Positions 6,601 through 49,096 of a stretch of 64,000 nt of DNA are shown here, in pieces. The notes under the pieces were generated by a model that did no database searches, was not told the DNA's origin, and saw nothing but the letters and a program-made list of their open reading frames with translations. Made by a program: the position numbers and the translations under genes. Source of the stretch: an uncultured Alphaproteobacteria bacterium (GTDB taxonomy: Bacteria; Pseudomonadota; Alphaproteobacteria; HIMB59; GCA-002718135); assembly GCA_902620425.1 (NCBI GenBank), contig CACNHX010000003.1, positions 7,199 to 71,198 on the forward strand, given 5' to 3'. Each line of letters begins with the position of its first letter. The stretch's first letter is position 1.

Positions 6601-8135
6601 AACGGAGTATCATCTCCCATCGATCCCGTTGCTTCTTTTTTTTCAGCAATCATTGGATGAAGTATTAATTCGATGTCTTCTACTGACCAAGCAAAGCATG
6701 CCATTCTCTTTCGTAGATCTCCAGAGTCTAAATCTCTAAATTCCTCATCAACAGATTGAACAAGTTTATCAATATACGTAATTTTTTTAGTCCAATCACC
6801 AAATGGTTTAGTTTCTGCCAAATACTTTTTTATCTCATGATCTTTAAAAAATTTTTTCTCTTTAAAATTGACTGCTATTAATTGACCTGGTCCTACCCTA
6901 CCTCTTTCTACTATTTCATTTTCTTTAATATCAACCATTCCAGTTTCAGAACCAGCAATAAGAAGATTTTTTGTCAGTGTATATCTTATAGGTCTAAGGC
7001 CATTTCTATCCATCCCAGCAATAGCCCAATCACCGTACGCACCACATATTGCTGCTGGACCATCCCATGGTTCCATAACTGCTCCACCATAAGCGTATAA
7101 ATCTTTTATTTTTTTTGGAAAATCTCTTCTATGGGACCAAGCTTCTGGAATTGTTATTATTTTAGCCATAGGTAAAGAGCGATTAGCTTTGACTAATAAC
7201 TCAATTGTTGAATCTAATGCAGCAGAGTCAGACGCTTTAGAATCAATTATGGGTTTTAAATCATCTACATTATTGCCAAAATTTTTATGTTCCATTCTTG
7301 GCTCATGAGCAGCCATCCAATTTTTATTACCTTTAAGTGTATTTATTTCACCATTATGCGCAATCACTCTAAAAGGCTGTGCTAAAGACCATGTAGGAAA
7401 TGTATTAGTTGAATAACGCTGGTGGTAAACTGCATATCTAGAGATAAAATTCTCATTTTGGATATCTGGATAAAAATTGGAAAGCTGTTCTGCTAAAAAC
7501 ATACCTTTATAAACAATAGACTGACAAGATAGTGAGCAAATATAAAAGTCTGAAATATTTTGATTTCTAATTTCTTTTTCTATTCTTTTTCTAATTATAT
7601 AAAGTTTATTATCAAATTGCTTTTCATCTTCTAGTTCTTCATTACAAATTAGTATTTGTTCTATTTCAGGCCTTGTTGCTTTTGCTTTATCACCAATAAT
7701 CGATGAATTAATTGGAACGTGTCTCCAACCATATATTTTCAAACCTTCTTTAATTATTTCAGATTCAACAATTGTACGAGCATTTTCTTGAGCGGCAAAA
7801 TCTGTACGTGGTAAAAAAATCATGCCAACCCCGAAAGGTAAATTATTAGGAGTGTGACCCGTTCTTTCTATTTGTTGAGTAAAAAAATTCTTTGGTATGG
7901 ATAACTGTATTCCTGCACCATCACCTGTTTTACCATCAGCATCAACTGCTCCACGGTGATACAAAACTCTTAAAGCTTGAACTCCTAACTCGACTATTTC
8001 TCTTGTCTCAGAGCCGTCCAAAGATGCTATTAGTCCAACACCACATGATGAATGTTCATCTTGTTCATTATAAACGTGATTTTCTTCTAGAAATTTTTTA
8101 TTCTTTTTATACTTTTCAATAAAGTGATTAGGCAT
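3618..8135 (-). CDS. gltB: Glutamate synthase large subunit
   Basis: 1505 aa; mature N-terminal CGVG, HNGEINT, KVAQGAKPGEGGQLPG, 3Fe-4S CIMVRQCHSNTCPVGVC, C-terminal beta-helix. Confidence 0.99.
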   Translation of the reverse strand: MPNHFIEKYKKNKKFLEENHVYNEQDEHSSCGVGLIASLDGSETREIVELGVQALRVLYHRGAVDADGKTGDGAGIQLSIPKNFFTQQIERTGHTPNNLPFGVGMIFLPRTDFAAQENARTIVESEIIKEGLKIYGWRHVPINSSIIGDKAKATRPEIEQILICNEELEDEKQFDNKLYIIRKRIEKEIRNQNISDFYICSLSCQSIVYKGMFLAEQLSNFYPDIQNENFISRYAVYHQRYSTNTFPTWSLAQPFRVIAHNGEINTLKGNKNWMAAHEPRMEHKNFGNNVDDLKPIIDSKASDSAALDSTIELLVKANRSLPMAKIITIPEAWSHRRDFPKKIKDLYAYGGAVMEPWDGPAAICGAYGDWAIAGMDRNGLRPIRYTLTKNLLIAGSETGMVDIKENEIVERGRVGPGQLIAVNFKEKKFFKDHEIKKYLAETKPFGDWTKKITYIDKLVQSVDEEFRDLDSGDLRKRMACFAWSVEDIELILHPMIAEKKEATGSMGDDTPLAVLSNKYRGLHHFFRQNFSQVTNPPIDSLRERVVMSLRTRIGNLSNILDEDEDQCDHLQLNSPVLSIEQFKSMRKYMKDTVKIIDTTMDKTNTENNFETEIARINLEAEQAVREGYVHIILSDKEMSKTRIALPMILVTSSVHHHLIKQNLRTFISLNVQSAECLDVQYFAVLIGVGATSVNAYMAQQAIAERHKKGLFKNLSYEECVERFINSINNGLLKTMSKMGISVINSYRGGCNFEAIGLSRNLMSKYFPSMSSKISGIGISGIERRSRLAHDMAYEESIITLPIGGNYRYRFGGEKHAFEARSIHMLQTAVTSNNYSLFKKYSTMIDEMDPINIRDLLDFKKNNDNSNSNTVEPSQEIRKRLVAPGISLGALSPEAHETLSVAMNRIGAKSDSGEGGEDPIRFKPKPNGDNASSKIKQIASGRFGVTAEYLNNCEEIEIKVAQGAKPGEGGQLPGGKVTELIAKLRHSTEGVTLISPPPHHDIYSIEDLAQLIYDLKQINPRAKVCVKLVAQSGIGTVAAGVAKAKADTILISGHNGGTGASPQTSIKYAGLPWELGLSEVHQVLSLNNLRDKVVLRTDGGLKTGKDIVIAAMLGAEEYGIGTASLVAMGCIMVRQCHSNTCPVGVCSQDEKLREKFTGTPEKVINLFSFIADEVREILGSLGFSSLDEVVGRSDLLYQVSRGSADLDDLDLNPIIQTIDSSVGEFDIKKNTINKVSDSLDIKIIEDAKSFFETDQKIELNYNIKNTDRAIGTRLASEITTTKGMSSLPEDFFTVNFHGSAGQSFGAWSVQGTTLKVFGDANDYVAKGLSGGKIVIQPRSSSQLKTNKNVIIGNTVLYGATRGKLFAAGTAGDRFAVRNSGAHAVIEGCGDNGCEYMTGGSAVILGEVGNNFGAGMTGGMAFVYDKEGTLPLRINLEDIFYQQQMTNYWEKVLHQKIEEHIKETNSMYAKNLLENWENEKLLFWQIVPKEMINKFDQPVLIQEEKSA

Positions 8136-9573
8136 TTACTGCTTTCTTATTAATATTATTTTTATCAGCATAATTATTTTCTAAATATTCATTAATATTC
8201 TTTGCTGCATCACGACCATCTTTAATTCCCCAAACAACTAAACTTGCACCGCGAACAATATCTCCAGCAGCAAATACTCCATCAATTGATGTCATCATAT
8301 TTTTATAATTAATTTTTAATGTACCCCATCTTGTAATTGTTAGGTTGTTATGATCAAAAAGCTTTGGTAAATCTTCAGGTTCAAAACCCAAAGCTTCTAT
8401 AGCTAAATCAACATCTAGGTTTTTTTCCGTACCTTCTTTTGGCTCTGGCTTCCTTCTACCTGACTCATCTGGTTCTCCAAGTTGCATTGAAACGGTTCTG
8501 ACATTTTTTAAAGATCCGTTTCCCGAATATTCAGTTGGTAAAGTCAACCATTGAAAATCAACACCCTCTTCTATTGCATTTTGAACTTCTCTTTGCGAAC
8601 CAGGCATGTTTGTTTTATCACGTCTGTAAAGACACTTAACAGATTTTGCTCCTTGTCTTACAGCTGTTCTAACGCAATCCATGGCGGTATCACCGCCGCC
8701 AATGACAACTATATTTTTTCCATTTGCGTTTAATCTTCCATTTGTAAAATCTTCAACTTTATCTTTTAAACCAGTCTTGTTACTTGCTATTAGAAAATCT
8801 AAAGCTGGTACAACATTATTAAAATTAGATGTATTTAGATTGATTTCTCTAAATTTGTAAACCCCGGTTGCGATAAGAACTGCGTCATGCTTAATTTTAA
8901 TATCTTCAAAAGTAATGTCTTTGCCAATATCGCAGTTTAATTCAAACTTAATTCCACTTTCTTTAAGTCGATTTGTTCTTCTTATAACAATATCTTTTTC
9001 TAATTTAAAATTAGGGATACCATAAATTAAAAGACCACCTGGTCTGTCATAGCGATCATAGATTGTAACTTGAAATCCTTTTTTACGAAGTTCTTCTGCT
9101 GCGGCTAGTCCAGCAGGGCCAGAGCCGATAATTCCCACGCTTTGGTTTCTTTCTTCAACTGGCTCTATATTTTTAACCCAACCTTCTTCCCAAGCTTTAT
9201 CCGTAATATATTTCTCTATTGATCCTATAGTAACAGTACCGTGGCCAGATTGTTCAATTACACAGTTACCTTCACACAAACGATCTTGGGGACATATACG
9301 ACCACAAATTTCAGGCATATTATTTGTAGAGTTGGAAATTTCAAATGCTTCCTGCATTCTATCCTCAGCAGTTAGTTTTAACCAATCTGGAATATTATTG
9401 TGTAAAGGACAATGAACTTGGCAAAAAGGTACGCCACATTGAGAACATCTGGAGGCTTGTTCTTCTGCCTTTTGTGAGGCATATTTAGCGTAAATTTCAT
9501 CAAATGTTTTTACTCTTTCTTTAGCAGATATTTTACTAGGATTTTCCTTATTTATTTTTGTAAATTTTAGCAT
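8128..9573 (-). CDS. gltD: Glutamate synthase small subunit
   Basis: RCSQCGVPFCQVHCP, GRICPQDRLCEGNC, GSGPAGL, GGGDTAMDC; upstream of gltB as in other alphaproteobacteria. Confidence 0.98.
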   Translation of the reverse strand: MLKFTKINKENPSKISAKERVKTFDEIYAKYASQKAEEQASRCSQCGVPFCQVHCPLHNNIPDWLKLTAEDRMQEAFEISNSTNNMPEICGRICPQDRLCEGNCVIEQSGHGTVTIGSIEKYITDKAWEEGWVKNIEPVEERNQSVGIIGSGPAGLAAAEELRKKGFQVTIYDRYDRPGGLLIYGIPNFKLEKDIVIRRTNRLKESGIKFELNCDIGKDITFEDIKIKHDAVLIATGVYKFREINLNTSNFNNVVPALDFLIASNKTGLKDKVEDFTNGRLNANGKNIVVIGGGDTAMDCVRTAVRQGAKSVKCLYRRDKTNMPGSQREVQNAIEEGVDFQWLTLPTEYSGNGSLKNVRTVSMQLGEPDESGRRKPEPKEGTEKNLDVDLAIEALGFEPEDLPKLFDHNNLTITRWGTLKINYKNMMTSIDGVFAAGDIVRGASLVVWGIKDGRDAAKNINEYLENNYADKNNINKKAVNA

Positions 9574-28433: not shown

Positions 28434-30143
28434 TTAACTTTTTAATGGTAATTTAATGAGAAAACAAGCACCTCTAAAGTCTAATTTGTCACTTTCTGTT
28501 AATTCAATTGAACCATTGAATGAATTGATTATCTCGTAGGATATGGATAGCCCAAGACCTGAGTGCTTGTCCCGATCATCTATTCTATCAGTGTAAAATC
28601 TATCAAAAATTTTATTTTTTTCTTTCAAATCTATACCTTTTCCTTGATCATAAATTTTGATTTCAACACAATTTTCATTTTTTTTATTTGATGTAATTAA
28701 AATATTTGAATTATTTTTGGCAATTGAAATACTATTATCTATTAAATTTAGTATTACCTGCAAAAATTTATCTTTGTTAAGAAGTACTAAATTTTTATTA
28801 TTATCAGATTGAAATAAAATTTTAATATTTTTCTGATTAGTTGACTTTTCACTAAAATTTTCTTTTAGAAATTTGTTTATATTAGTTAGTTCAAAATTTT
28901 CTATTTCAATTTCTGCAATAGTTTTTGAAAAATGAGAAATGTCGGAGATCAATCTATTCATTCTGTCGATATCTTGATTAAAATTATTCATTACTTTGGT
29001 TCTATTTTCATTAGTTATGTTTTTGCTAGTTAATAATTCAAACGAAGATTTTATTGCTGTTAGTGGGTTTTTTAGTTCATGAGCAACATCAGAGCTAAAT
29101 TTTTCTAATTGATTGATTTGTGATTTCAATTCGTTTGACATAAGTTGTATTTGGTTAGATAAAATACCAATTTCATCAGATCTTAGAGGGTATATTAATT
29201 TTTTCTTATTTGTTTTATCTCTCTCAAGGACAGTGATTTTGGTTATTTGCCTTAATGGTGATATCAAACCTCTCAAAAAAATAAATGATAATAAGATTGT
29301 AACTAAAATAAATAATAGAAAAAAATTAAAGAAATTCAAAGATTGTCTAGCTAGTTCATTATTATTTAATAATAATTTATACTTTATTAGAACAACTCCA
29401 TAGACGTTATTATCTTGGATTATAGGTGAAGTTAAAATTCTAGTTATATCATTATTTTCATCTTCAAAAGTTTTAACAAGTTTCTGCTTTTCTTTAATAG
29501 TGTCAATAATCAAAATAATTTCATGGACATTTTTATCTAAATTTTTAGTAAATTTATTTTTAAGAAAGTAATTATTAATATAATTAAAATTATTAATATA
29601 AATTTTTTCAAATAAATTTGAGAAATCAGCTATATTTTCACGCGTTTCAGATAAATCTATTTCCTCAACATCTGTGCTCAGAAATAAATTTGATGAATCT
29701 GCAATTTTAATCCAATTTTCATTATAAATAATAGTGTTAAAATCTTTATCACCAAAGTTTTGAAATATAAATTGTTCAGTTGTAAACTTTTCTAACTCAG
29801 GTTCTGACAATTCTATAGGATTAATATTATCTACCAAGTCACAACTTTCCTTGTACGCTTCAATATCTTGAAGATATCTACAACGATAATCATACTGAAA
29901 AATTGGTACTCTTAATATTGAAGTGTTTTCTAAATATTTTGTTATATTTGATAAATTTAATCTTATTGATTGATCCCTATTATATATAAATTTATTATTT
30001 TGAATTAAGTTGAAATTGAAATAAGATAAAAATACTAAACCTAAAAATACAATTATTAAGTTAATTATAATGAGTTGAAATGTTAGATTATAACTTGATA
30101 AGGTAAATAATCTCTTAATCACGCCAAGAATATCCAGAGCCAT
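28434..30143 (-). CDS. chvG: Sensor histidine kinase ChvG/ExoS
   Basis: Two TM helices, HAMP (RSDEIGILS), H-box VAHELKNPL, HATPase (NLIDNS, DQGKG, FDRFYT, GLGLSI); follows chvI. Confidence 0.85.
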   Translation of the reverse strand: MALDILGVIKRLFTLSSYNLTFQLIIINLIIVFLGLVFLSYFNFNLIQNNKFIYNRDQSIRLNLSNITKYLENTSILRVPIFQYDYRCRYLQDIEAYKESCDLVDNINPIELSEPELEKFTTEQFIFQNFGDKDFNTIIYNENWIKIADSSNLFLSTDVEEIDLSETRENIADFSNLFEKIYINNFNYINNYFLKNKFTKNLDKNVHEIILIIDTIKEKQKLVKTFEDENNDITRILTSPIIQDNNVYGVVLIKYKLLLNNNELARQSLNFFNFFLLFILVTILLSFIFLRGLISPLRQITKITVLERDKTNKKKLIYPLRSDEIGILSNQIQLMSNELKSQINQLEKFSSDVAHELKNPLTAIKSSFELLTSKNITNENRTKVMNNFNQDIDRMNRLISDISHFSKTIAEIEIENFELTNINKFLKENFSEKSTNQKNIKILFQSDNNKNLVLLNKDKFLQVILNLIDNSISIAKNNSNILITSNKKNENCVEIKIYDQGKGIDLKEKNKIFDRFYTDRIDDRDKHSGLGLSISYEIINSFNGSIELTESDKLDFRGACFLIKLPLKS

Positions 30144-30828
30144 ATCTTGTTCTTATTTGATCAAAAGAATTATCATAAGATCTGAATTTTTTTCTTAATC
30201 TCTTGATATGGCTATCAATAGTCCTGTCATCAACATATATTGAATCACCATACATTGCGTCCATTAATTGATTTCTATCTTTTACTACACCAGGATACTG
30301 AGCAAGAGATTTTATTAAATTAAACTCTGCAACCGTAAGTTCAATTTCTATATCTTTCCAAAAACATAATTGTTTATCTTCATCTAGTATCAAATCACCC
30401 TTAATAAAATTTTGTTTTTTAATATTATTATCTTTTTGTTCTTCGTTTCTATTGTTATGAATTCTTAACACTGTTCTTATGCGCTCATTTAATAATTTTT
30501 GTGAAAAAGGTTTTTTTATATAATCTGAAGCTCCCATTCTTAATCCAATTATCTCATCTTGTTCATGATCTTTTGAAGTTAAAAAGATAATAGGAAGTTC
30601 TTTAAGATTTTCAATCTTGCTCGAACGTACTTTTGAAAGAAGTTCATTTCCATCCATTTTTGGCATCTTAATATCAAACAGTCCCAAATCGTATGATTTG
30701 CTTTCAAGAGCCTCTAGGGCTTCAACTCCATTAAGAAATGTATCAACTGTAAATCCCTCACTTTGCAGAGAAAGAGATACTGATGTGAGAATCGACTGCT
30801 CGTCGTCAACTAATGCTATCTTTGGCAT
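30115..30828 (-). CDS. chvI: OmpR-family response regulator ChvI
   Basis: IALVDDE, LFDIKMPKMDG, FLTSKD, DYIKKPFS, VKDRNQLMD, YVDDRTIDSHIKRLRKKF, YGSGY. Confidence 0.93.
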   Translation of the reverse strand: MPKIALVDDEQSILTSVSLSLQSEGFTVDTFLNGVEALEALESKSYDLGLFDIKMPKMDGNELLSKVRSSKIENLKELPIIFLTSKDHEQDEIIGLRMGASDYIKKPFSQKLLNERIRTVLRIHNNRNEEQKDNNIKKQNFIKGDLILDEDKQLCFWKDIEIELTVAEFNLIKSLAQYPGVVKDRNQLMDAMYGDSIYVDDRTIDSHIKRLRKKFRSYDNSFDQIRTRYGSGYSWRD

Positions 30829-31053: not shown

Positions 31054-31069
31054 GCACTACATATTGTGT
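31054..31069 (+). promoter_or_regulatory. NrdR box 2
   Basis: GCACTACATATTGTGT fits acaCwAtATaTwGtgt; 39 bp before the nrdA ATG. Confidence 0.8.
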
Positions 31070-31108: not shown

Positions 31109-33862
31109 ATGGCAGACAATCTACAGGTATCAGCAAAAATCTCAGAAGAAAAAAGTGTAAATATTTTAACATTAAGTGTCGTGCGTCGTGACGGAGCTAT
31201 CACCCCTTTCAAATCTGATAAAATTTCAAACGCTATAAAAAAAGCATTCTTAGCACAAACAAAAATTAGAAATGATAAAAATAAAGAAAAGGAACAACAA
31301 GATGGAATTCATAAAACTGTTGAAGCTTTAACGCATAAAGTTGTGTCAGCTCTAACAAGAAGGATTGCTGACGGTGATATGATTCACATTGAGGATATAC
31401 AAGATCAAGTGGAGTTAGCACTTATGAGGGATGAGCATCATAAAGTTGCTAGAGCGTATGTTTTGTATAGAGAACAGAGAGCGGCTTCAAGATATCACAC
31501 TAAAAAACTGAAAGAACAAGTTGGAGAAAAAGCTTCTTCAATGATGGTAACTAAAAGAGATGGAAGTAAAGAGCCAATTTCACTAGATAAAATAACCAAT
31601 AGAGTTTCTGTTCTATCTACTGGCTTAAACATTGATCCAATTGTCGTTGTTCAAAAAGCTGTTCCAGGCTTATATAGTGATATTAGTTCCGTTGAAATTG
31701 ATACTTATCTTGCTGAAACTGCTGCTGCTTTAACAGTTGAACATCCTGATTATTCTTATCTTGCAGCAAGAATAAAAGTAAACTCACTTCATAAAGAAAC
31801 TCCGGGTTTCATCATAGCAACAAAAAATTTATACGATGATGGATTGTTAAGAGAAGATTATTATAAAAAGGTCATGGAGAATGCAGACTTAATTGAGTCT
31901 GTAATTGACTATGACAAAGATTATACTTTTGATTATTTTGCTCTCACAACTCTAATAAGAGCATATTTATTAAAGTTCGATAATAAAACAATTGAAAGAC
32001 CTCAAGATCTTTGGATGAGAGTAACTTTAACAGTTACCGGTAATGAGTTTAATTTAGATAAAATAAAAGAAACTTATAAAAGTTTATCAACGGGTATGTA
32101 TACACATGCTACCCCAACATTGTTTAATAGTGGATTAAAAATGCAACAATTATCTTCATGCTTTTTAATAGGAATGGAAGATGACTCCATAGAAGGTATT
32201 TTTAATACTATAAAAGATTGTGCCCTAATTTCTAAAACAGCTGGTGGTATTGGCATGCACGCTCACAATATTAGAGGTAGTGGAAGTAGAATAAAATCAA
32301 CAAACGGGAAATCTAACGGCCTTATTCCATTTTTGAAAATATTTAATGAGACTGCTAAATCAGTTGATCAAGGCGGTGGTAAAAGAAAAGGTTCTTTTGC
32401 AGTTTACTTAGAACCTTGGCATGCTGACATTGAGAAATTTCTAGAACTTAGAAAAAATACAGGTGCCGAAGAATTTAGAGCAAGAGATTTGTTTTACGCT
32501 TTATGGATACCAGATTTATTCATGAAAAGAGTAGAAAATGATGAAGAGTGGACACTTATGAGTGAACATGAATGTCCAGGCCTCTCAGATGTTTATGGAG
32601 ACGAGTTTGAAAAACTTTACACAAAGTATGAAAATGAAATGAAGCATTTAGAAAAAATTAAAGCGAGAGATTTAATGTCTAAAATCATAGAAGCACAAAT
32701 AGAAACAGGACAACCTTATATGCTTTATAAAGACTCTATTAATAATAAGTCTAATCAAAAAAATATTGGTATCATTAAATCTTCAAACCTTTGTGCAGAG
32801 ATAGTTGAATATTCAGATAGGAATGAAACATCTGTATGTAATTTGGCTTCCATAGCTCTGCCAAAATTTGTAAAAAAATCAGATAAAAAATTAATATATG
32901 ACTATGACGCTCTTTACGAAACTGCAAAATTGGCTACAAAAAACTTAGATGAAGTAATTGATATTAATTTCTATCCAACTGATAAAACGGAAAGATCTAA
33001 TAATAAACATAGGCCAATAGGTTTAGGAATACAGGGACTTGCAGATGTCTACTTTAAGATGGGAATAGCCTATGAATCTGAGGAAGCTAAAGAAATAAAT
33101 AAATTAATTTTTGAGACAATTTATTTTGGAGCTTTAGAAGCTTCATGCGATTTAGCAAAAGAAAAAGGAGCCTACGAAACATTTAATAATTCACCCATCT
33201 CAGAGGGTAAGTTTCAATTTGATCTGTGGAATGTTAATCCTTCTTCAAAGTGGGATTGGGATTCACTTAGAGCTAAAATTAAAGAGCACGGTGTGAGAAA
33301 TTCTTTAACCACAGCTTGTATGCCAACTGCGTCAACAGGTATTATACTAGGTAATACTGAAACATTCCAAATACAAACGTCTAATATATATAAAAGACAA
33401 ACACTCTCTGGTGAGTTCCTACTCGTAAATAGATATTTAGTGAATGAACTTTCTCAAAGAGGATTATGGAATAAAGAAATGAGGGACAAAATAATTTTAG
33501 AAAATGGATCGGTAGAGAACATAAATGAAATTCCAACCGAACTTAAAGAAGTTTATAAAACAGTATGGGAAGTATCACAAAAAACTGTAATTGATATGTC
33601 AGCAGATAGAGCACCATTTATTGATCAAACCCAATCGATGAATCTTTGGCTTTCAACACCTACATTTGGAAAAGTTAATTCGATGCATATGTACGCTTGG
33701 AAAAAAGGTCTTAAAACAGGAATGTATTATTTAAGAAGTAGATCAGCAGTTGATGCTGTAAAAGTCACAGTTTCATCAGAAAAAGCAGCTAAAGATGCTT
33801 ATATAAATACTGCTATTAAACAAAACAATGAACCAGAAGATTGCGAAACTTGCAGTGCATAA
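31109..33862 (+). CDS. nrdA: Class I ribonucleotide reductase alpha subunit, eukaryote-like core, two N-terminal ATP cones
   Basis: QLSSCFL, SNLCAEI (Asn-Cys-Glu), VCNLASI, GMYYLRS, C-terminal CETCSA; cones begin VVRRDG and VTKRDG. Confidence 0.98.
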   Translation: MADNLQVSAKISEEKSVNILTLSVVRRDGAITPFKSDKISNAIKKAFLAQTKIRNDKNKEKEQQDGIHKTVEALTHKVVSALTRRIADGDMIHIEDIQDQVELALMRDEHHKVARAYVLYREQRAASRYHTKKLKEQVGEKASSMMVTKRDGSKEPISLDKITNRVSVLSTGLNIDPIVVVQKAVPGLYSDISSVEIDTYLAETAAALTVEHPDYSYLAARIKVNSLHKETPGFIIATKNLYDDGLLREDYYKKVMENADLIESVIDYDKDYTFDYFALTTLIRAYLLKFDNKTIERPQDLWMRVTLTVTGNEFNLDKIKETYKSLSTGMYTHATPTLFNSGLKMQQLSSCFLIGMEDDSIEGIFNTIKDCALISKTAGGIGMHAHNIRGSGSRIKSTNGKSNGLIPFLKIFNETAKSVDQGGGKRKGSFAVYLEPWHADIEKFLELRKNTGAEEFRARDLFYALWIPDLFMKRVENDEEWTLMSEHECPGLSDVYGDEFEKLYTKYENEMKHLEKIKARDLMSKIIEAQIETGQPYMLYKDSINNKSNQKNIGIIKSSNLCAEIVEYSDRNETSVCNLASIALPKFVKKSDKKLIYDYDALYETAKLATKNLDEVIDINFYPTDKTERSNNKHRPIGLGIQGLADVYFKMGIAYESEEAKEINKLIFETIYFGALEASCDLAKEKGAYETFNNSPISEGKFQFDLWNVNPSSKWDWDSLRAKIKEHGVRNSLTTACMPTASTGIILGNTETFQIQTSNIYKRQTLSGEFLLVNRYLVNELSQRGLWNKEMRDKIILENGSVENINEIPTELKEVYKTVWEVSQKTVIDMSADRAPFIDQTQSMNLWLSTPTFGKVNSMHMYAWKKGLKTGMYYLRSRSAVDAVKVTVSSEKAAKDAYINTAIKQNNEPEDCETCSA

Positions 33863-33875
33863 GAAGGAGTAAAGA

Positions 33876-34865
33876 ATGATATCAAAAGGCGTTAAATCAA
33901 TATTTCCAATAAAAAACCAAGAAATTTGGGATAGGTACAAGCAACATATTCAAGCCTTTTGGACAACCGAAGAAGTATCTTTGCAAGATGATTTAAGAGA
34001 TCTTGAAACTTTAAATGATGGTGAAAAACATTTTATTAAGCACGTACTTGCATATTTTGCTAACTCCGAAGCAATGATTAACGAAAACCTAGCAAGTAGG
34101 TTCTACAAAGAAATTTTAATTCCTGAAGCGAGATGTTTCATATCAATGCAAATGTTGAATGAATCAATTCATGCAGAGATGTATGGTCTTCAAATTGAGG
34201 CTTATGTAAAAGATGCAAAAGAAAAGGATATGCTTTTTGATGCAATACAAAACGTACCATGTATTAACCACAAAGCACAATGGGTATCAAAATGGCTTAA
34301 TGGTAGTCAAAACCTACTAACCAGACTAATAGGTTTTGGATTAGTTGAAGGTTTATTTTTTGCAGGCTCTTTCTGTGCTATTTATTATTTTAGAAAAAGA
34401 GGTTTACTGCCTGGTTTAGCCTTATCTAACGATTGGATTGCAAGAGATGAAGGAATGCACTTTAGCTTCTCATCGTTAATGTTCAGGACTTTAAGAGACA
34501 AGTTTAATAATAAAACATTAACAGATGCGGATATTAGTGATTTATCTTTGATTCCTTCTGACGTTCCTCAATCACAATTTGAGGAAATTGTTAGAGAAGC
34601 GGTAGCATTTGAAAAAGAATTTGTAAGAGATGCTTTACCTGTGGATTTAATCGGTATGAATGCTGATTTAATGTGTCAGTATATCGAGGCTGTTGCAGAC
34701 AGAATTGCAGATTTGTTTGAATTTGATAGAGTCTTTAAGACAGAAAATCCTTTTGATTTTATGAGAGCTTTAGATGTACAAAACGTTACAAACTTTTTTG
34801 AAAAAAGAGTATCTGAATATCAAAGACCTACAGATAGGGCTTTAAGTTTTGATGAAGCATTTTGA
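33876..34865 (+). CDS. nrdB: Class I ribonucleotide reductase beta subunit, eukaryote-like
   Basis: FWT.EEV.L, NESIHAEMY, VEGLFFAGSF, RDEGMH, NFFEKRVSEYQ; SD AAGGAG upstream. Confidence 0.98.
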   Translation: MISKGVKSIFPIKNQEIWDRYKQHIQAFWTTEEVSLQDDLRDLETLNDGEKHFIKHVLAYFANSEAMINENLASRFYKEILIPEARCFISMQMLNESIHAEMYGLQIEAYVKDAKEKDMLFDAIQNVPCINHKAQWVSKWLNGSQNLLTRLIGFGLVEGLFFAGSFCAIYYFRKRGLLPGLALSNDWIARDEGMHFSFSSLMFRTLRDKFNNKTLTDADISDLSLIPSDVPQSQFEEIVREAVAFEKEFVRDALPVDLIGMNADLMCQYIEAVADRIADLFEFDRVFKTENPFDFMRALDVQNVTNFFEKRVSEYQRPTDRALSFDEAF

Positions 34866-35104
34866 TGGAAGCAGAGATATATTCTAAAACTAATTGTGGA
34901 TACTGTGATAGAGCTAAACTACGGTTAGCGAAATATAATCCAAAAATTTATATGCTTGATACAGATTATACGAGAGACGATTTTTTTGAAAAGTTTCCAA
35001 ACGCAAAAACTTTTCCTCAAATAATTTTAAATGGTAAAAAAATTGGAGGGTATCATGAGCTTGAAAAATGGTTTGAAATGAATACCTTTGATGAGGAGTT
35101 CTAA
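34865..35104 (+). CDS. Dithiol glutaredoxin (CGYC) with acidic/aromatic C-terminal tail; ATG overlaps nrdB stop (TGATG)
   Basis: YSKTNCGYCDRAK, TFPQI, IGGY; ends NTFDEEF. Confidence 0.93.
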   Translation: MEAEIYSKTNCGYCDRAKLRLAKYNPKIYMLDTDYTRDDFFEKFPNAKTFPQIILNGKKIGGYHELEKWFEMNTFDEEF

Positions 35105-43014: not shown

Positions 43015-46559
<3,545 letters not shown>

Positions 46560-46562
46560 ATT

Positions 46563-47678
46563 TTAGACTCGCATTGGCATCAAAACATAAACTAGTTTAT
46601 CATTTGATTTTTCTTGAGCTGTTATAGGTGAAGTGTTATCATTTAAGTTAATACATATCTCTTCATCTTCTAAATTATTTACGATATCCATAATATACTT
46701 TGAATTGAAACCTATTTCAATTTCATCTCCAGAATAATTAATTTTTATATCTTCTGACGCAGTACTACTTTCATTGTTAATTGAATTTAAATTTAAAATA
46801 TTCTCAATTAATTTAAATTTAATCACAGGAGACTTATCATTTGCAATAGTACTAACTCTATCAACAGCAGCTAAAAGTTTTTCTCTACTTACATTTAAAA
46901 CATTGGTATTATTTTTTGGAATAACTCTTTTGTAATCTGGAAAACTACCATCTATTAATTTAGAAACAAATATAATTTTTCCTATAAAGAATACAATCTT
47001 GTTTGTACTGATTGATATTTCAATATCTATATCAATTTCTGATAATAATTTTGATAATTCATAAATTGTTTTCTTTGGTATGATAACACCTGGTATTTGT
47101 TCAATATTACTAGAAATATCATGACTAAATTTAGCTAACCGATGTCCATCAGTCCCAACTAAAGTAACTATATTTTTATTATCATCTTTATTTACACTAA
47201 AATACAAGCCATTTAAAAAATACCTTGTTTCTTCATTAGAAATTGCAAACTTAGTCTTGTCTATTAATTTAAATAATATTCTAGAATTTAATTTTATATT
47301 TATTCCAGTATTTTCATAATCTATAATAGGATAATCTTCTTTAGGTAAGCAATGCAATGAAAATCTTGATCCATCTGCTCTTAAAGTTAATAATTTTCCA
47401 TTGTTTGAAATTATCTCAATTTCACCATTATCATCAATCTTCCTTACTATATCGTATAAAATTTGAGAGTTTATTGTAGTAGATCCATCTTCAAAAATTT
47501 TGCAGCTAACTTTTTCTACAATTGAAATATCCATATCAGTTGAAGATAAGATTAGTTGATTATTTTTTGCTTCAATTGATATATTTGCTAAAATTGGAAG
47601 AGAATTTTTTTTATCAACTATACCTTGTAAGTGTGAAAGAGTTTTAAAAAAAAGTGAGCGTGATATTTTAAATTTCAT
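46563..47678 (-). CDS. dnaN: DNA polymerase III beta sliding clamp
   Basis: EETRYFLNG, GTDGHRL, IIPKK, SKLIDGSFPDY, IGFN, VLMPMRV. Confidence 0.98.
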   Translation of the reverse strand: MKFKISRSLFFKTLSHLQGIVDKKNSLPILANISIEAKNNQLILSSTDMDISIVEKVSCKIFEDGSTTINSQILYDIVRKIDDNGEIEIISNNGKLLTLRADGSRFSLHCLPKEDYPIIDYENTGINIKLNSRILFKLIDKTKFAISNEETRYFLNGLYFSVNKDDNKNIVTLVGTDGHRLAKFSHDISSNIEQIPGVIIPKKTIYELSKLLSEIDIDIEISISTNKIVFFIGKIIFVSKLIDGSFPDYKRVIPKNNTNVLNVSREKLLAAVDRVSTIANDKSPVIKFKLIENILNLNSINNESSTASEDIKINYSGDEIEIGFNSKYIMDIVNNLEDEEICINLNDNTSPITAQEKSNDKLVYVLMPMRV

Positions 47679-47701
47679 ACTTAAACATATGATAAAAAGA
47701 A

Positions 47702-49096
47702 TTAAGAATCTATAAGTCTTTTTAGTAATTCTAAATCTTCATTAAAGTTTACATCACTTAGTTTAAGTTCCTCAATCTTTTTTACTGCATGCATAACAGT
47801 AGTATGATCTCTACCGCCAAATTTTCTACCAATCTCCGGTAAAGATCTTGAAGTTATGGATTTGGCTAAGTACATTGCTATTTGTCTAGGTCTAGCGACA
47901 GATCGCGATCTTCTAGGTGAATGCATGTCAGTAATTCTAATATTAAAATGTTCTGCAACTTTTTTTTGTATTTCTTCAATTGTAATTTTTTTATTTGATG
48001 ATTTTAATAAATCTTGAAGTACTAACTGTGCCGTTTCAACTGTTATAGGCGTTCCTACCAGTGTTGCGTGCGCAACTAATCTATTGAGTGCACCTTCCAT
48101 TTCTCTAACATTTGAAATAATTCTATGTGAAAGAAATTCTAAAACCTTTGGCGGAATTTCCACACCTCTTTTGTGAGCCTTTTCTATTAAAATACCGAGT
48201 CTTAATTCATAAGTTGTTGGATGGATATCTGCTACGAGGCCACAACCTAGTCGAGATTTTAATCTTTCTTGTACCCCATCTAGATCAGTTGGTGTTTTAT
48301 CAGCTGAAATTACTATTTGTTTATTTTGTTCTATTAGAGCATTAAATGTGTGAAAAAATTCTTCTTGAGTATTATCTTTACCACTTATAAATTGAACGTC
48401 ATCGATCATAAGCACATCTATTGACCGAAACTGTTCTTTAAAAGCTGATGTATCTTTATATCTCAGAGCTCTTACAAATTGATACATAAATTTTTCAGCA
48501 GAAAGATAGATTACCTTTCTTTCTGGTTGTTGTTGTTTAATTTTCCATCCGATAGCATGCATAAGGTGAGTTTTACCTAACCCTACACCGCCACATAAAA
48601 ATAATGGATTAAATGTTATTTTATTTGCTTCTGATACTCTTTGAGAAGCTGCAAAAGCTAATTCATTTGGTTTCCCAACAACAAAATTTTCGAAAGTAAA
48701 TCTAGGATCTAACGGAGCACCAAATTCATTAGGATATGTTGAGGATTGATTAGACCTTAAGTCCATTGAAGATTTCCAGTGATTATCATTGCTTTTAATA
48801 GTTCTTGTTGTTCCAGGAACTATTCTTCCACCTGAGGGTTTAACAACAAATTTAATGGTATCAATTTTGTCAATAAAATTTTTTGCTTCACTTTTTATCT
48901 TGTCAGAATAATTATTAACTATCCAATCTCTTAAAAACTTTGTTGGTACGGAAAATGTTATGATAGTTTCTTCTACAGAAACATAGTTTAAATGTTTTAG
49001 CCAATTGTTGAAGGCGGAGTCACCAACATTTTTTTTTAGATTTTTTTTAAAGGATAGCCACTTACTGTCATCAAATATAGTAGATGTATTATCCAT
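47702..49096 (-). CDS. dnaA: Chromosomal replication initiator DnaA
   Basis: FTFENFVVG..N, GGVGLGKTHL, IDDVQF, RLKSR, FGGRDHTTVMHA. Confidence 0.99.
   Translation of the reverse strand: MDNTSTIFDDSKWLSFKKNLKKNVGDSAFNNWLKHLNYVSVEETIITFSVPTKFLRDWIVNNYSDKIKSEAKNFIDKIDTIKFVVKPSGGRIVPGTTRTIKSNDNHWKSSMDLRSNQSSTYPNEFGAPLDPRFTFENFVVGKPNELAFAASQRVSEANKITFNPLFLCGGVGLGKTHLMHAIGWKIKQQQPERKVIYLSAEKFMYQFVRALRYKDTSAFKEQFRSIDVLMIDDVQFISGKDNTQEEFFHTFNALIEQNKQIVISADKTPTDLDGVQERLKSRLGCGLVADIHPTTYELRLGILIEKAHKRGVEIPPKVLEFLSHRIISNVREMEGALNRLVAHATLVGTPITVETAQLVLQDLLKSSNKKITIEEIQKKVAEHFNIRITDMHSPRRSRSVARPRQIAMYLAKSITSRSLPEIGRKFGGRDHTTVMHAVKKIEELKLSDVNFNEDLELLKRLIDS

What the first reader, a model, noticed from the sequence alone, without database searches (positions are those of the whole stretch)
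34041..34190. NrdB has Glu instead of Asp at metal ligand 1 while keeping the radical Tyr
Seen: YFANSEAMINENL (GAA at 34068-34070) where eukaryote-type class Ia beta has FFAASDGIVNENL. The radical Tyr is retained in NESIHAEMY (TAT 34182-34184), and the other ligands (VEG, RDEGMH) are intact. Established: class Ia has Asp+Tyr (Fe2), class Ic has Glu+Phe (Mn/Fe), and class Id has Glu+Tyr plus a Lys four residues after the Glu (Mn2, superoxide-activated). Here that +4 residue is Asn. Inference: an all-Glu site with Tyr but no class Id Lys, in a eukaryote-type scaffold, fits none of the standard subclasses. It may use Mn or Mn/Fe, which would matter for an oligotroph in iron-poor water.
Basis: partly seen in the sequence, partly recalled or inferred. 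Interest (0 to 1): 0.65.

Follow-up and report, generated by a model that had tools for sequence, protein, structure and literature searches.

The report
Glutamate-type eukaryote-like RNR small subunit
This marine bacterium makes its DNA building blocks with a ribonucleotide reductase whose metal site has a glutamate where all its closest relatives have aspartate; the change defines a whole uncharacterised clade that sits behind an iron-starvation control site in Vibrio relatives, so the enzyme may spare iron by using manganese.

Summary
GAA at 34068-34070 encodes Glu65 of NrdB. It aligns without gaps to mouse R2 Asp139, the first metal ligand. Tyr103 and the other ligands (E96, H99, E158, E192, H195) are intact.

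The Glu is not a one-off. It is fixed in 218 of 218 members of one clade (NJ bootstrap 0.99), using both GAA and GAG codons. The clade spans SAR11/HIMB59-like marine Alphaproteobacteria, Vibrionaceae and Ichthyobacterium. It is Asp in 147 of the 150 nearest cluster representatives (255 of 255 full-length relatives outside the clade) and in 80 of 80 viral relatives.

The clade always travels as nrdA, nrdB and a small redoxin gene.

Membership tests exclude the other subclasses:
- Class Id: no Lys at +4, the alpha subunit has ATP-cones, 18% identity.
- Class Ic: Tyr is kept.
- Strict class Ia: no Asp at ligand 1.

New circumstantial evidence: in four gammaproteobacterial loci a Fur-box-like site lies 57-77 nt upstream of the Glu-type nrdA. 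This suggests an iron-starvation isozyme.

Best reading (about 0.5): an iron-sparing, Mn-containing tyrosyl-radical cofactor. The main rival (about 0.35) is an ordinary diferric-tyrosyl enzyme with a conservative Asp-to-Glu change.

Metal identity cannot be tested here. I found no paper that describes this clade.

The parts
31109..33862 (+). nrdA, class I RNR alpha subunit, 917 aa. It has two N-terminal ATP-cone stretches and a C-terminal CETCSA (CxxC) tail.
   Evidence: Pfam Ribonuc_red_lgC 1.1e-214, ATP-cone with 2 stretches, Ribonuc_red_lgN; TIGR02506 NrdE_NrdA above its cut-off; tail read.
33876..34865 (+). nrdB, class I RNR beta subunit, 329 aa, eukaryote-type scaffold, Glu-type clade.
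   Evidence: AlphaFold pLDDT 85, pTM 0.83; Foldseek top hits are human and mouse R2.
34068..34070 (+). GAA = Glu65, first metal ligand (mouse Asp139, E. coli Asp84 column).
   Evidence: Fixed in 218/218 clade members and Asp in 255/255 full-length relatives outside the clade. GAA/GAG split 58/36.
34074..34079 (+). Met67-Ile68, clade-specific partners of Glu65 on the same helix (Asp-type relatives have Ile-Val).
34080..34082 (+). Asn69, the +4 position where class Id has Lys71.
   Evidence: review PMC8463856.
34161..34172 (+). Glu96 to His99 (ESIH), second and third ligands. Asn95, just before, is clade-specific (Asp-type relatives mostly have Met).
34182..34184 (+). TAT = Tyr103, radical-site tyrosine (mouse Tyr177).
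   Evidence: invariant in alignment A2.
34347..34349 (+). Glu158 (mouse Glu233), bridging ligand. The pocket residues Phe162 and Phe166 follow.
34449..34460 (+). Glu192 to His195 (EGMH), last two ligands. Asp191 precedes them (mouse Asp266).
33960..33962 (+). Trp29 (mouse Trp103, E. coli Trp48), radical-transfer and electron-injection residue.
   Evidence: invariant in A2.
34818..34820 (+). Tyr315 (mouse Tyr370), C-terminal radical-transfer tyrosine. It is followed by the alpha-binding tail ...LSFDEAF.
34497..34571 (+). Insertion of about 20-25 residues (208-232) relative to eukaryotic R2 and the Vibrio copies. It is confidently modelled.
34862..35104 (+). Glutaredoxin-like redoxin, 79-80 aa, active site CGYC, C-terminus NTFDEEF. 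The ORF opens with TTG at 34862. ATG at 34865, overlapping the nrdB TGA, is the likelier start.
   Evidence: Pfam Glutaredoxin 1.9e-08; TIGR02181 9.7e-12, below its cut-off. Present after nrdB in 80/80 GTDB relatives. Homologous to the cassette redoxins of Vibrio and other Alphaproteobacteria.
31054..31069 (+). NrdR-box-like site GCACTACATATTGTGT, 40 nt upstream of the nrdA ATG.
   Evidence: The only 2-mismatch match in 64 kb. The total number of matches is not above chance.

Best explanation
nrdA, nrdB and grx form the aerobic ribonucleotide reductase module of this SAR11/HIMB59-like marine alphaproteobacterium.

Shown here:
- NrdB belongs to a distinct monophyletic clade of eukaryote-type beta subunits in which the first metal ligand is Glu. 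The site is therefore four Glu plus two His.
- The rest of the class Ia tyrosyl-radical apparatus is unchanged: Tyr103, the Phe162/Phe166/Ile188 pocket, Trp29, Asp191 and Tyr315.
- The module includes its own glutaredoxin-like gene.

Inferred:
- The redoxin re-reduces the C-terminal CxxC of NrdA.
- The Glu-type site binds manganese in at least site 1, giving a Mn/Fe or Mn2 cofactor.
- The oxidised cluster then oxidises Tyr103 to the radical that starts long-range radical transfer to NrdA.
- The enzyme therefore works with little or no iron.

In gammaproteobacteria that have other RNRs, the same module appears to be the Fur-controlled iron-starvation isozyme. That would make it the functional counterpart of Mn-dependent NrdEF. 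In streamlined marine Alphaproteobacteria it is the only RNR seen in this 64-kb window; the rest of the genome could not be checked.
For: Ligand mapping and conservation.

Monophyly: the core Glu clade has NJ bootstrap 0.99 with the ligand column removed.

Conserved three-gene cassette:
- Window.
- V. harveyi L161, V. tapetis L166, an unnamed bacterium on a 3.0-Mb metagenome contig L173, and alphaproteobacterial L170.
- Ichthyobacterium and a relative carry a thioredoxin instead.
- The redoxins are homologous.

Fur-box-like sites 57-77 nt upstream of the Glu-type nrdA:
- L161 5614-5632, 2 mismatches.
- L166 3644-3662, 2 mismatches, with the suf promoter at 7303-7321 (1 mismatch) as an internal positive control.
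- L167, 3 mismatches.
- L173 3613-3631, 2 mismatches, plus a second site.
- Chance expectation is 0.00-0.01 per locus.

Other context:
- In V. tapetis the cassette lies between a catalase gene and sufABCDSE.
- By the review PMC8463856, the characterised RNR betas with Glu at this position (Ic, Id) use Mn. R2lox does as well, per the abstracts listed.
- From my own knowledge: the Fur-repressed RNRs I know of are Mn-dependent class Ib.
- The module is expressed in marine metatranscriptomes.
Against: - No metal was measured. The Mn assignment rests on correlation and on regulation in distant relatives (59-66% identity), not in the window organism.
- The window has no Fur box upstream of nrdA.
- The full class Ia tyrosyl-radical environment is retained, and the closest structures are diferric eukaryotic R2.
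- From my own knowledge: E. coli R2-D84E still assembles Fe2(III/III)-Tyr radical.
- No NrdI-like activase or class Id-type Lys channel is present, so the oxidant for an all-Mn site is unexplained.
- Clade-specific substitutions are only marginally enriched near the ligands (OR 3.1, p = 0.047).
- The Fur pattern I used is the palindromic form. The classical 19-mer at 3 mismatches or fewer found nothing in L161.
Confidence: 0.5

Rival explanations
1. This is an ordinary class Ia enzyme. The Glu-type site still assembles a diferric cluster with O2 and a stable Tyr103 radical. The Asp-to-Glu change is a conservative, lineage-specific substitution. It might alter the kinetics of O2 activation (a longer-lived peroxo intermediate) but not the metal used.
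For: - The scaffold, radical pathway and hydrophobic pocket are those of eukaryotic diferric R2.
- The alpha subunit has ATP-cones, as in class Ia.
- The +4 Asn is the ancestral residue of the Asp-type relatives.
- From my own knowledge: E. coli R2-D84E forms the Tyr122 radical. Its PDB entries 1piy, 1piz, 1pim and 1piu appear among the hits.
- RNRdb-based papers file NrdBg as subclass Ia.
Against: - The Glu is fixed across a deep clade, while 147 of the 150 nearest cluster representatives and 80/80 viral relatives keep Asp.
- Fur-box-like sites upstream of four gammaproteobacterial copies fit poorly with an iron-demanding isozyme.
- The characterised RNR betas with Glu at ligand 1 (Ic, Id) use Mn.
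Confidence: 0.35
2. This is a class Id-like mechanism. A Mn2(III/IV) cluster assembled from scavenged superoxide is itself the oxidant. Tyr103 is not a stable radical and serves only as a conduit.
For: The Tyr/Glu pairing is the feature by which class Id was first recognised. No NrdI is encoded nearby, as in class Id.
Against: - There is no Lys at +4; Asn69 is invariant in the core clade.
- NrdA has two ATP-cones, whereas all known class Id alpha subunits lack them.
- F. johnsoniae 6cwq is only rank 50 in Foldseek with 18% identity, and it is absent from the 60 best phmmer hits.
- The class Ia-type pocket around Tyr is retained.
- The modelled helix 48-79 is continuous. This is weak evidence, because the model is apo.
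Confidence: 0.1
3. This is a degenerate or non-catalytic beta-like subunit, comparable to yeast Rnr4.
For: None found.
Against: All six ligands, Tyr103 and the radical pathway are intact and invariant. The gene is under purifying selection and is expressed. It is the only RNR beta in the window.
Confidence: 0.02

Closest known systems
Eukaryote-type class Ia R2 (mouse/human RRM2, p53R2, yeast Rnr2; RNRdb group NrdBg)
   Same: - 45-51% identity and Foldseek TM 0.9.
- Same ligand spacing, radical Tyr and hydrophobic pocket, plus the Trp and C-terminal Tyr of the radical pathway.
- Same C-terminal F-x-D-x-x-F type alpha-binding tail.
- The alpha subunit has ATP-cone(s) and a CxxC tail.
   Different: - The first ligand is Glu, not Asp.
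- Clade-specific changes lie next to the ligands: Met67, Ile68, Asn95, Gln106, Gly155, Ala163, Tyr171, Asp186, Ser199.
- A redoxin gene is linked.
- The alphaproteobacterial and Ichthyobacterium members carry a 20-25 residue insertion.
Class Id NrdB (Flavobacterium johnsoniae, Leeuwenhoekiella blandensis, Facklamia ignava; NrdBi)
   Same: Tyr/Glu pairing. No NrdI nearby. A marine distribution for many members. A redoxin is associated in one case (Grx fused in F. ignava).
   Different: - No Lys at +4.
- Alpha has ATP-cones.
- Only about 18% identity, and a different phylogenetic group.
- The class Ia-type Tyr pocket is kept.
Class Ic NrdB (Chlamydia trachomatis; Mn(IV)/Fe(III))
   Same: All-Glu carboxylate set, and an alpha subunit with ATP-cones. 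It is the second-closest structural group (22-24% identity, E about 1e-29).
   Different: Tyr is retained here, where class Ic has Phe. It belongs to a different clade (NrdBz).
Engineered E. coli R2-D84E (PDB 1piy, 1piz, 1pim, 1piu)
   Same: The same single change at ligand 1, in a Tyr-containing class Ia scaffold.
   Different: It is a laboratory point mutant without the co-evolved second-sphere changes. Its behaviour (diferric-Tyr radical with a long-lived peroxo intermediate) is recalled from memory. The literature search for it found nothing.
Class Ib NrdHIEF as the iron-starvation RNR of enterobacteria
   Same: It is the working analogy for the gammaproteobacterial copies: a second aerobic RNR with its own small redoxin, placed behind a Fur box. 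The NrdEF facts are from my own knowledge.
   Different: There is no NrdI. The beta is not NrdF-like (E about 1e-9). The redoxin is Grx-like rather than NrdH. The first ligand of NrdF is Asp.

Membership tests
Class I RNR beta subunit (ferritin-like R2, PF00268) | R2 fold with E/D...EXXH...E...EXXH dimetal motif | tested here: met
   PF00268 7.4e-89. Ligands map one-to-one onto mouse R2. Foldseek TM 0.9.
Class Ia (eukaryote-type, NrdBg) | Asp as first metal ligand, paired with the radical Tyr | tested here: not met
   Glu65 lies in the Asp139 (mouse) column. Tyr103 is present.
Class Ia (eukaryote-type, NrdBg) | Closest sequence and fold relatives are eukaryotic or NrdBg R2 | tested here: met
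   Best PDB hits are mouse, human, yeast and Plasmodium R2. The nearest Asp-type representative is vertebrate RRM2 at 51%.
Class Ia (eukaryote-type, NrdBg) | Alpha subunit with N-terminal ATP-cone | tested here: met
   Two ATP-cone stretches in NrdA.
Class Ia (eukaryote-type, NrdBg) | Fe2(III/III)-tyrosyl radical cofactor assembled with O2 | not testable with these tools
   Needs protein chemistry.
Class Id (NrdBi) | Tyr/Glu pairing | tested here: met
   Glu65 and Tyr103; definition from PMC8463856.
Class Id (NrdBi) | Conserved Lys four residues after the Glu ligand (Lys71, F. johnsoniae numbering) | tested here: not met
   Asn69, invariant in the core clade. The review gives Glu67 and Lys71.
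Class Id (NrdBi) | Alpha subunit lacks an ATP-cone | tested here: not met
   NrdA has two ATP-cones. The Vibrio and other cassette alphas have one.
Class Id (NrdBi) | Sequence membership of the NrdBi group | tested here: not met
   6cwq is at Foldseek rank 50 with 18% identity. It is not among the 60 best phmmer hits at E up to 10.
Class Id (NrdBi) | Thr (Thr191) hydrogen-bonded to the Tyr, holding it about 7 A from Mn1 | tested here: inconclusive
   No class Id sequence could be aligned residue by residue here. The class Ia pocket residues are retained.
Class Id (NrdBi) | Mn2(III/IV) cofactor activated by superoxide | not testable with these tools
   Needs EPR and activity assays.
Class Ic (NrdBz-c) | Phe, Leu or Val in place of the radical Tyr, together with a Glu first ligand | tested here: not met
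   Tyr103 is invariant. Criterion as stated in PMC6370689.
Class Ib (NrdF with NrdI/NrdH) | NrdF-type beta with Asp ligand and a neighbouring nrdI | tested here: not met
   TIGR04171 scores 61 bits against a cut-off of 355. No flavodoxin-like gene lies in any cassette.
Class Ie | Loss of three metal-binding carboxylates | tested here: not met
   All four carboxylates are present.
Fur regulon (gammaproteobacterial copies only) | Fur box overlapping the promoter | tested here: met
   Sites with 2-3 mismatches lie 57-77 nt upstream of nrdA in L161, L166, L167 and L173, against 0.00-0.01 expected per locus. Binding and regulation themselves were not tested.
Fur regulon (window organism) | Fur box upstream of nrdA | tested here: not met
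   No site near 31109. The two 3-mismatch hits elsewhere are at chance level.

The most novel reading that the evidence does not exclude
The Glu-type clade is a new class I subclass. It would be a eukaryote-type beta subunit that builds a manganese-dependent (Mn/Fe or Mn2) tyrosyl-radical cofactor without NrdI and without the class Id lysine channel. It travels as a self-contained alpha-beta-redoxin module. It would be the sole RNR of SAR11-type bacteria, which would take DNA synthesis out of the iron quota of the ocean's most abundant heterotrophs. It would also be the Fur-controlled back-up RNR of Vibrionaceae fish pathogens.
Probability: 0.4. Interest if true: 0.85.

Novelty: new variant of a known kind. 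Interest (0 to 1): 0.66.

Why it matters
RNR subclasses are defined by their radical-generating cofactor. Each new ligand and radical-residue combination studied so far (Ic, Id, Ie) turned out to use new chemistry. Here a Tyr/Glu combination sits in the eukaryote-type scaffold, in a clade that RNRdb-based surveys file as iron-dependent class Ia.

If the enzyme uses Mn:
- Estimates of iron demand in SAR11-type bacteria would change, and so would ecological readings of RNR type against ocean iron.
- Vibrionaceae would gain an unrecognised iron-starvation RNR.
- A close homologue of human R2 with different metal chemistry would be available for comparison.

If the enzyme is diferric, it is a natural D84E-type variant. 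That would be useful for studying O2 activation, but otherwise ordinary.

Tried and rejected
- **Class Id membership:** rejected on Lys, ATP-cone and sequence.
- **Sequencing error or strain polymorphism:** rejected.
- **Unique to this genome:** rejected; it is clade-wide.
- **Phage origin or pelagiphage copy:** no viral or phage relative exceeds 50% identity and all IMG/VR relatives have Asp. Pelagiphage NrdB is about 26% identical.
- **Classical Fur 19-mer** GATAATGATAATCATTATC at 3 mismatches or fewer found nothing in L161. The site has 4 mismatches to it by eye. The palindromic form was then used and replicated in three further loci.
- **Promoter scan** of the V. harveyi upstream region found nothing.
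- **Literature search for D84E** found no paper in the library; a second attempt was a malformed query.
- **Literature on SAR11 or Pelagibacter NrdB, NrdBg, and Vibrio Fur with RNR** gave nothing on this clade.
- **Second-sphere remodelling near the ligands:** enrichment is only marginal (p = 0.047 including the ligand itself).
- **AlphaFold** cannot speak to the metal. Helix 48-79 is continuous in the apo model.
- **NrdR-box pattern:** the count in the window is not above chance overall.
Full report
**1. Observation**

The ORF 33876-34865(+) encodes a 329-aa protein. It is a ribonucleotide reductase small subunit by Pfam (PF00268, 7.4e-89). GAA at 34068-34070 and TAT at 34182-34184 are in frame.

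phmmer against all PDB sequences gives mouse R2 (1h0n) as best hit at 4.7e-91. Residues 9-112 align without a gap at an offset of +74. The mapping is:

| Window NrdB | Mouse R2 | Role |
|---|---|---|
| Glu65 | Asp139 | first metal ligand |
| Glu96 | Glu170 | ligand |
| His99 | His173 | ligand |
| Tyr103 | Tyr177 | radical site |
| Glu158 | Glu233 | ligand |
| Glu192 | Glu267 | ligand |
| His195 | His270 | ligand |
| Trp29 | Trp103 | radical pathway |
| Asp191 | Asp266 | radical pathway |
| Tyr315 | Tyr370 | radical pathway |

The assignment of the mouse residues as ligands is established knowledge. The alignment itself is a tool result. The residue four after the Glu is Asn69.

**2. The Glu is not noise**

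- All 120 nearest database proteins (87-93% identity) carry FANSEAMINEN, ESIHAEMY and RDEGMH.
- All 80 GTDB species genomes with an 85-100% identical protein carry SEAMINEN.
- Over 95 loci the codon is GAA 58 times and GAG 36 times. The single GAT belongs to an Asp-type phage-like relative. The amino acid is therefore kept through synonymous change.
- Contigs from four marine metatranscriptomes cover nrdA, nrdB and the downstream redoxin gene and fall away outside them. Contigs can include DNA, so this is supportive only.

**3. Organism and context**

The record titles of the identical or near-identical genomes are:
- uncultured Alphaproteobacteria single-cell genomes (AG-xxx series);
- Pelagibacteraceae bacteria;
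- a HIMB59 MAG (89%);
- MarineAlpha5 bins (85-87%).

The window is a housekeeping region with dnaA-dnaN-recF-gyrB, polA, metK, ahcY, trp genes and gltBD. It holds no other RNR gene, no nrdI and no metal transporter.

nrdA (31109-33862) encodes 917 aa with two ATP-cone stretches and a C-terminal CETCSA. A glutaredoxin-like ORF of 79-80 aa with CGYC overlaps the nrdB stop codon.

**4. How rare is Glu here, and who else has it**

A full HMMER scan of 1.84 billion cluster representatives returned 150 nearest representatives. Of these, 147 have Asp plus Tyr. The exceptions are two short fragments of the query's own family (P0121 with Glu; P0193 does not span the site) and one 302-aa protein, P0243, with AEGVIQEN. 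The nearest Asp-type representative is vertebrate RRM2 at 51%. All 80 relatives in IMG/VR (37-50% identity, phages and giant viruses) have Asp.

Searching from P0243 and then from its best hit uncovered more Glu-type proteins:
- NrdB of Vibrio harveyi, Vibrio sp. B172a, V. tapetis, Photobacterium damselae subsp. piscicida and Ichthyobacterium seriolicida. These are 310-328 aa, 56-66% identical to the window protein by the multiple alignment (61% by BLASTP for P0299 and P0303), and all carry FFAQSEGMINENL.
- A series of 329-aa alphaproteobacterial proteins at 73-82% identity, on contigs up to 2.6 Mb, all with SEAMINEN.

In a pooled alignment, 218 sequences have Glu and 255 have Asp. A neighbour-joining tree was built with the ligand column removed. 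It recovers the core Glu clade in 99% of 200 bootstraps. P0243 is its sister in the point estimate but in only 39% of replicates. The substitution is therefore a single old event that defines a clade spanning Alphaproteobacteria, Gammaproteobacteria and Bacteroidota.

tblastn also finds the gene on a 2.06-Mb V. campbellii replicon. It also lies on a 136-kb P. damselae plasmid, where nrdA-nrdB-grx sits between IS elements. No phage in INPHARED exceeds 50% identity, and pelagiphage NrdB is about 26% identical.

**5. A conserved three-gene module**

Everywhere examined, the Glu-type nrdB follows nrdA and is followed by a small redoxin gene:

| Organism or locus | nrdA (aa) | nrdB (aa) | Redoxin |
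|---|---|---|---|
| V. harveyi | 752 | 310 | 80-aa Grx-like |
| V. tapetis | 750 | 310 | 80-aa Grx-like |
| Unnamed bacterium, 3.0-Mb metagenome contig (L173) | 757 | 310 | 80-aa ORF |
| An alphaproteobacterium (L170) | 896 | 329 | 85-aa Grx |
| Ichthyobacterium and a relative | 759 / 763 | 328 | 95-99 aa thioredoxin |

All 80 GTDB relatives also have the redoxin gene. The Grx-like proteins are mutually homologous (34-44% identity, CxxC invariant).

The two nearest Asp-type bacterial or phage relatives inspected have no such neighbour. One paper notes that trx and grx genes usually lie away from nrd operons (PMC6187632).

**6. Membership tests**

- *Class Ia, eukaryote-type.* The scaffold, radical pathway and ATP-cone alpha are met. 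The Asp ligand is not.
- *Class Id.* The review PMC8463856 defines it by five features: the Tyr/Glu pairing; Lys71 four residues after Glu67; Thr191 holding the Tyr away from Mn1; alpha subunits without ATP-cones; and a Mn2(III/IV) cofactor. Only the first is met here. Asn69 replaces the Lys and NrdA has two ATP-cones. F. johnsoniae 6cwq is Foldseek rank 50 at 18% identity and is absent from the 60 best phmmer hits.
- *Class Ic.* Fails on the retained Tyr.
- *Class Ib.* Fails on NrdF and NrdI.
- *Class Ie.* Fails because all carboxylates are intact.

The statement that the protein fits none of the standard subclasses holds at the level of sequence-defined membership. RNRdb-based surveys file the whole NrdBg group as subclass Ia (PMC6370689; PMC12918982). 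The review's sequence network coloured nodes by motif, but its text does not discuss Id-like motifs inside the eukaryotic/viral cluster. I found no paper describing this clade.

**7. What else changed with the ligand**

I took the 137 positions that are at least 70% conserved in Asp-type relatives. Fourteen of them are switched and fixed in the core Glu clade. Seven of those lie within five residues of a ligand or of Tyr103:
- D65E, I67M, V68I
- L106Q
- A155G, S163A
- A199S

N95, F196 and S197 are additional clade-specific residues next to ligands.

The enrichment is modest: odds ratio 3.1, one-sided p = 0.047, with the ligand itself counted. The Phe162/Phe166/Ile188 pocket and Trp29, Asp191 and Tyr315 are invariant. 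This speaks for a working tyrosyl radical rather than a displaced Tyr as in class Id.

The AlphaFold model (pLDDT 85) has a continuous helix 48-79. It confidently places the 208-232 insertion. It says nothing about metals.

**8. Evidence bearing on the metal**

In V. harveyi the intergenic region upstream of the Glu-type nrdA contains AATGATAACTATTATCATC. This is 2 mismatches to the palindromic Fur consensus AATGATAATNATTATCATT, 58 nt before the ATG, and the only match in 16.9 kb (0.01 expected).

The same position is occupied in three more loci:
- V. tapetis: 2 mismatches. The suf promoter in the same locus scores 1 mismatch and serves as a positive control.
- P. damselae: 3 mismatches.
- L173: 2 mismatches, plus a second site with 1 mismatch.

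I defined the palindromic pattern after seeing the first site, and the classical 19-mer at 3 mismatches or fewer had missed it. The three replications, at the same distance from the ATG, are what make the result credible.

In V. tapetis the cassette lies between a catalase gene and sufABCDSE.

Two pieces of established knowledge, not tested here, bear on this. Fur-repressed paralogues are typically iron-sparing substitutes, and the Fur-repressed RNR of enterobacteria is the Mn-dependent NrdEF. Vibrionaceae also carry E. coli-type NrdAB and NrdDG, so the Glu-type module is an accessory isozyme there.

By the review PMC8463856, the characterised RNR betas with Glu at this position (Ic, Id) use Mn. 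The R2lox abstracts listed report a preferred Mn/Fe cofactor.

Taken together this favours an iron-sparing, Mn-containing cofactor.

The points against:
- There is no Fur box in the window.
- The best NrdR-like site lies 40 nt upstream of nrdA.
- The class Ia radical environment is complete.
- No activase or superoxide channel is evident.
- From memory: E. coli R2-D84E still forms the diferric-tyrosyl cofactor.

**9. Mechanism proposed**

Shown: an alpha-beta-redoxin module, a four-Glu/two-His site with Tyr, and a class Ia-type radical pathway.

Inferred:
- Mn occupies at least site 1.
- The oxidised cluster generates the Tyr103 radical.
- The radical passes via Trp29 and Tyr315 to NrdA.
- The Grx-like protein recycles the NrdA CxxC tail.

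I cannot choose between Mn/Fe with O2 and Mn2 with a reduced oxygen species. I put 0.5 on a Mn-containing cofactor, 0.35 on an ordinary diferric enzyme, and 0.1 on a class Id-like metal-centred oxidant.

**10. Verdict**

This is a new variant of a known kind and a candidate new subclass, pending biochemistry. The iron-poor-ocean rationale is plausible. It is not specific to oligotrophs, because the same enzyme occurs in copiotrophic Vibrionaceae and in fish pathogens.

Noticed in passing
window 34862-35104 (+); also L161 8959-9201, L166 6945-7187, L170 7023-7280: The cassette's Grx-like protein ends in ...NTFDEEF, which closely resembles NrdB's own alpha-binding C-terminus ...LSFDEAF. All six cassette redoxins end in Phe, mostly after an acidic stretch. 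In 80 GTDB relatives the tail is mostly N[TS]F[DEN]E[ED]F. The redoxin may dock in the beta-tail cleft of NrdA.
   Followed up: partly
window 34862-34867: The mechanical ORF for the redoxin starts at TTG 34862. ATG at 34865 overlaps the nrdB TGA (TGATG), and this start matches the M-x-I-E-hydrophobic-Y-S starts of the homologues. Translational coupling of nrdB and grx is likely.
   Followed up: partly
window 31054-31069 (+): GCACTACATATTGTGT is the best NrdR-box-like match in the 64-kb window (2 mismatches) and lies 40 nt upstream of the nrdA start. The overall number of matches is at chance level.
   Followed up: partly
window 34497-34571 (NrdB residues 208-232): An insertion of about 20-25 residues relative to eukaryotic R2 and the Vibrio copies. 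It is present in the alphaproteobacterial and Ichthyobacterium members. AlphaFold models it with pLDDT above 94. Its function is unknown.
   Followed up: no
L176 (NZ_CP061863.1, P. damselae subsp. piscicida plasmid) 4846-8347: The Glu-type nrdA-nrdB-grx module sits on a 136-kb plasmid between IS1, IS91 and IS240-type transposase genes. This suggests it moves as a self-contained unit.
   Followed up: partly
L166 699-12877 (V. tapetis): The module lies between a catalase gene and a sufABCDSE operon that has its own near-perfect Fur box at 7303-7321. This is an iron-starvation and oxidative-stress neighbourhood.
   Followed up: partly
L172 (Logan SRR28998483 contig) 3896-6909: P0243 is a divergent Glu-type NrdB (AEGVIQEN, Gln at +4, 40% identity). 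It pairs with a 697-aa NrdA without an ATP-cone, sits next to a thymidylate kinase-like gene and has no redoxin gene. It is possibly the sister of the core clade (bootstrap 0.39).
   Followed up: partly
window 43015-49096 (-): A dnaA-dnaN-recF-gyrB cluster, so the window probably lies next to the chromosomal replication origin.
   Followed up: no
window 28434-30828 (-): A histidine kinase and OmpR-type response regulator pair lies divergently upstream of nrdA. No link to nrd regulation was examined.
   Followed up: no
PDB 9dws: A 2025 apo structure of the Francisella hispaniensis RNR beta subunit appears among distant hits (21% identity). Its subclass was not looked into.
   Followed up: no
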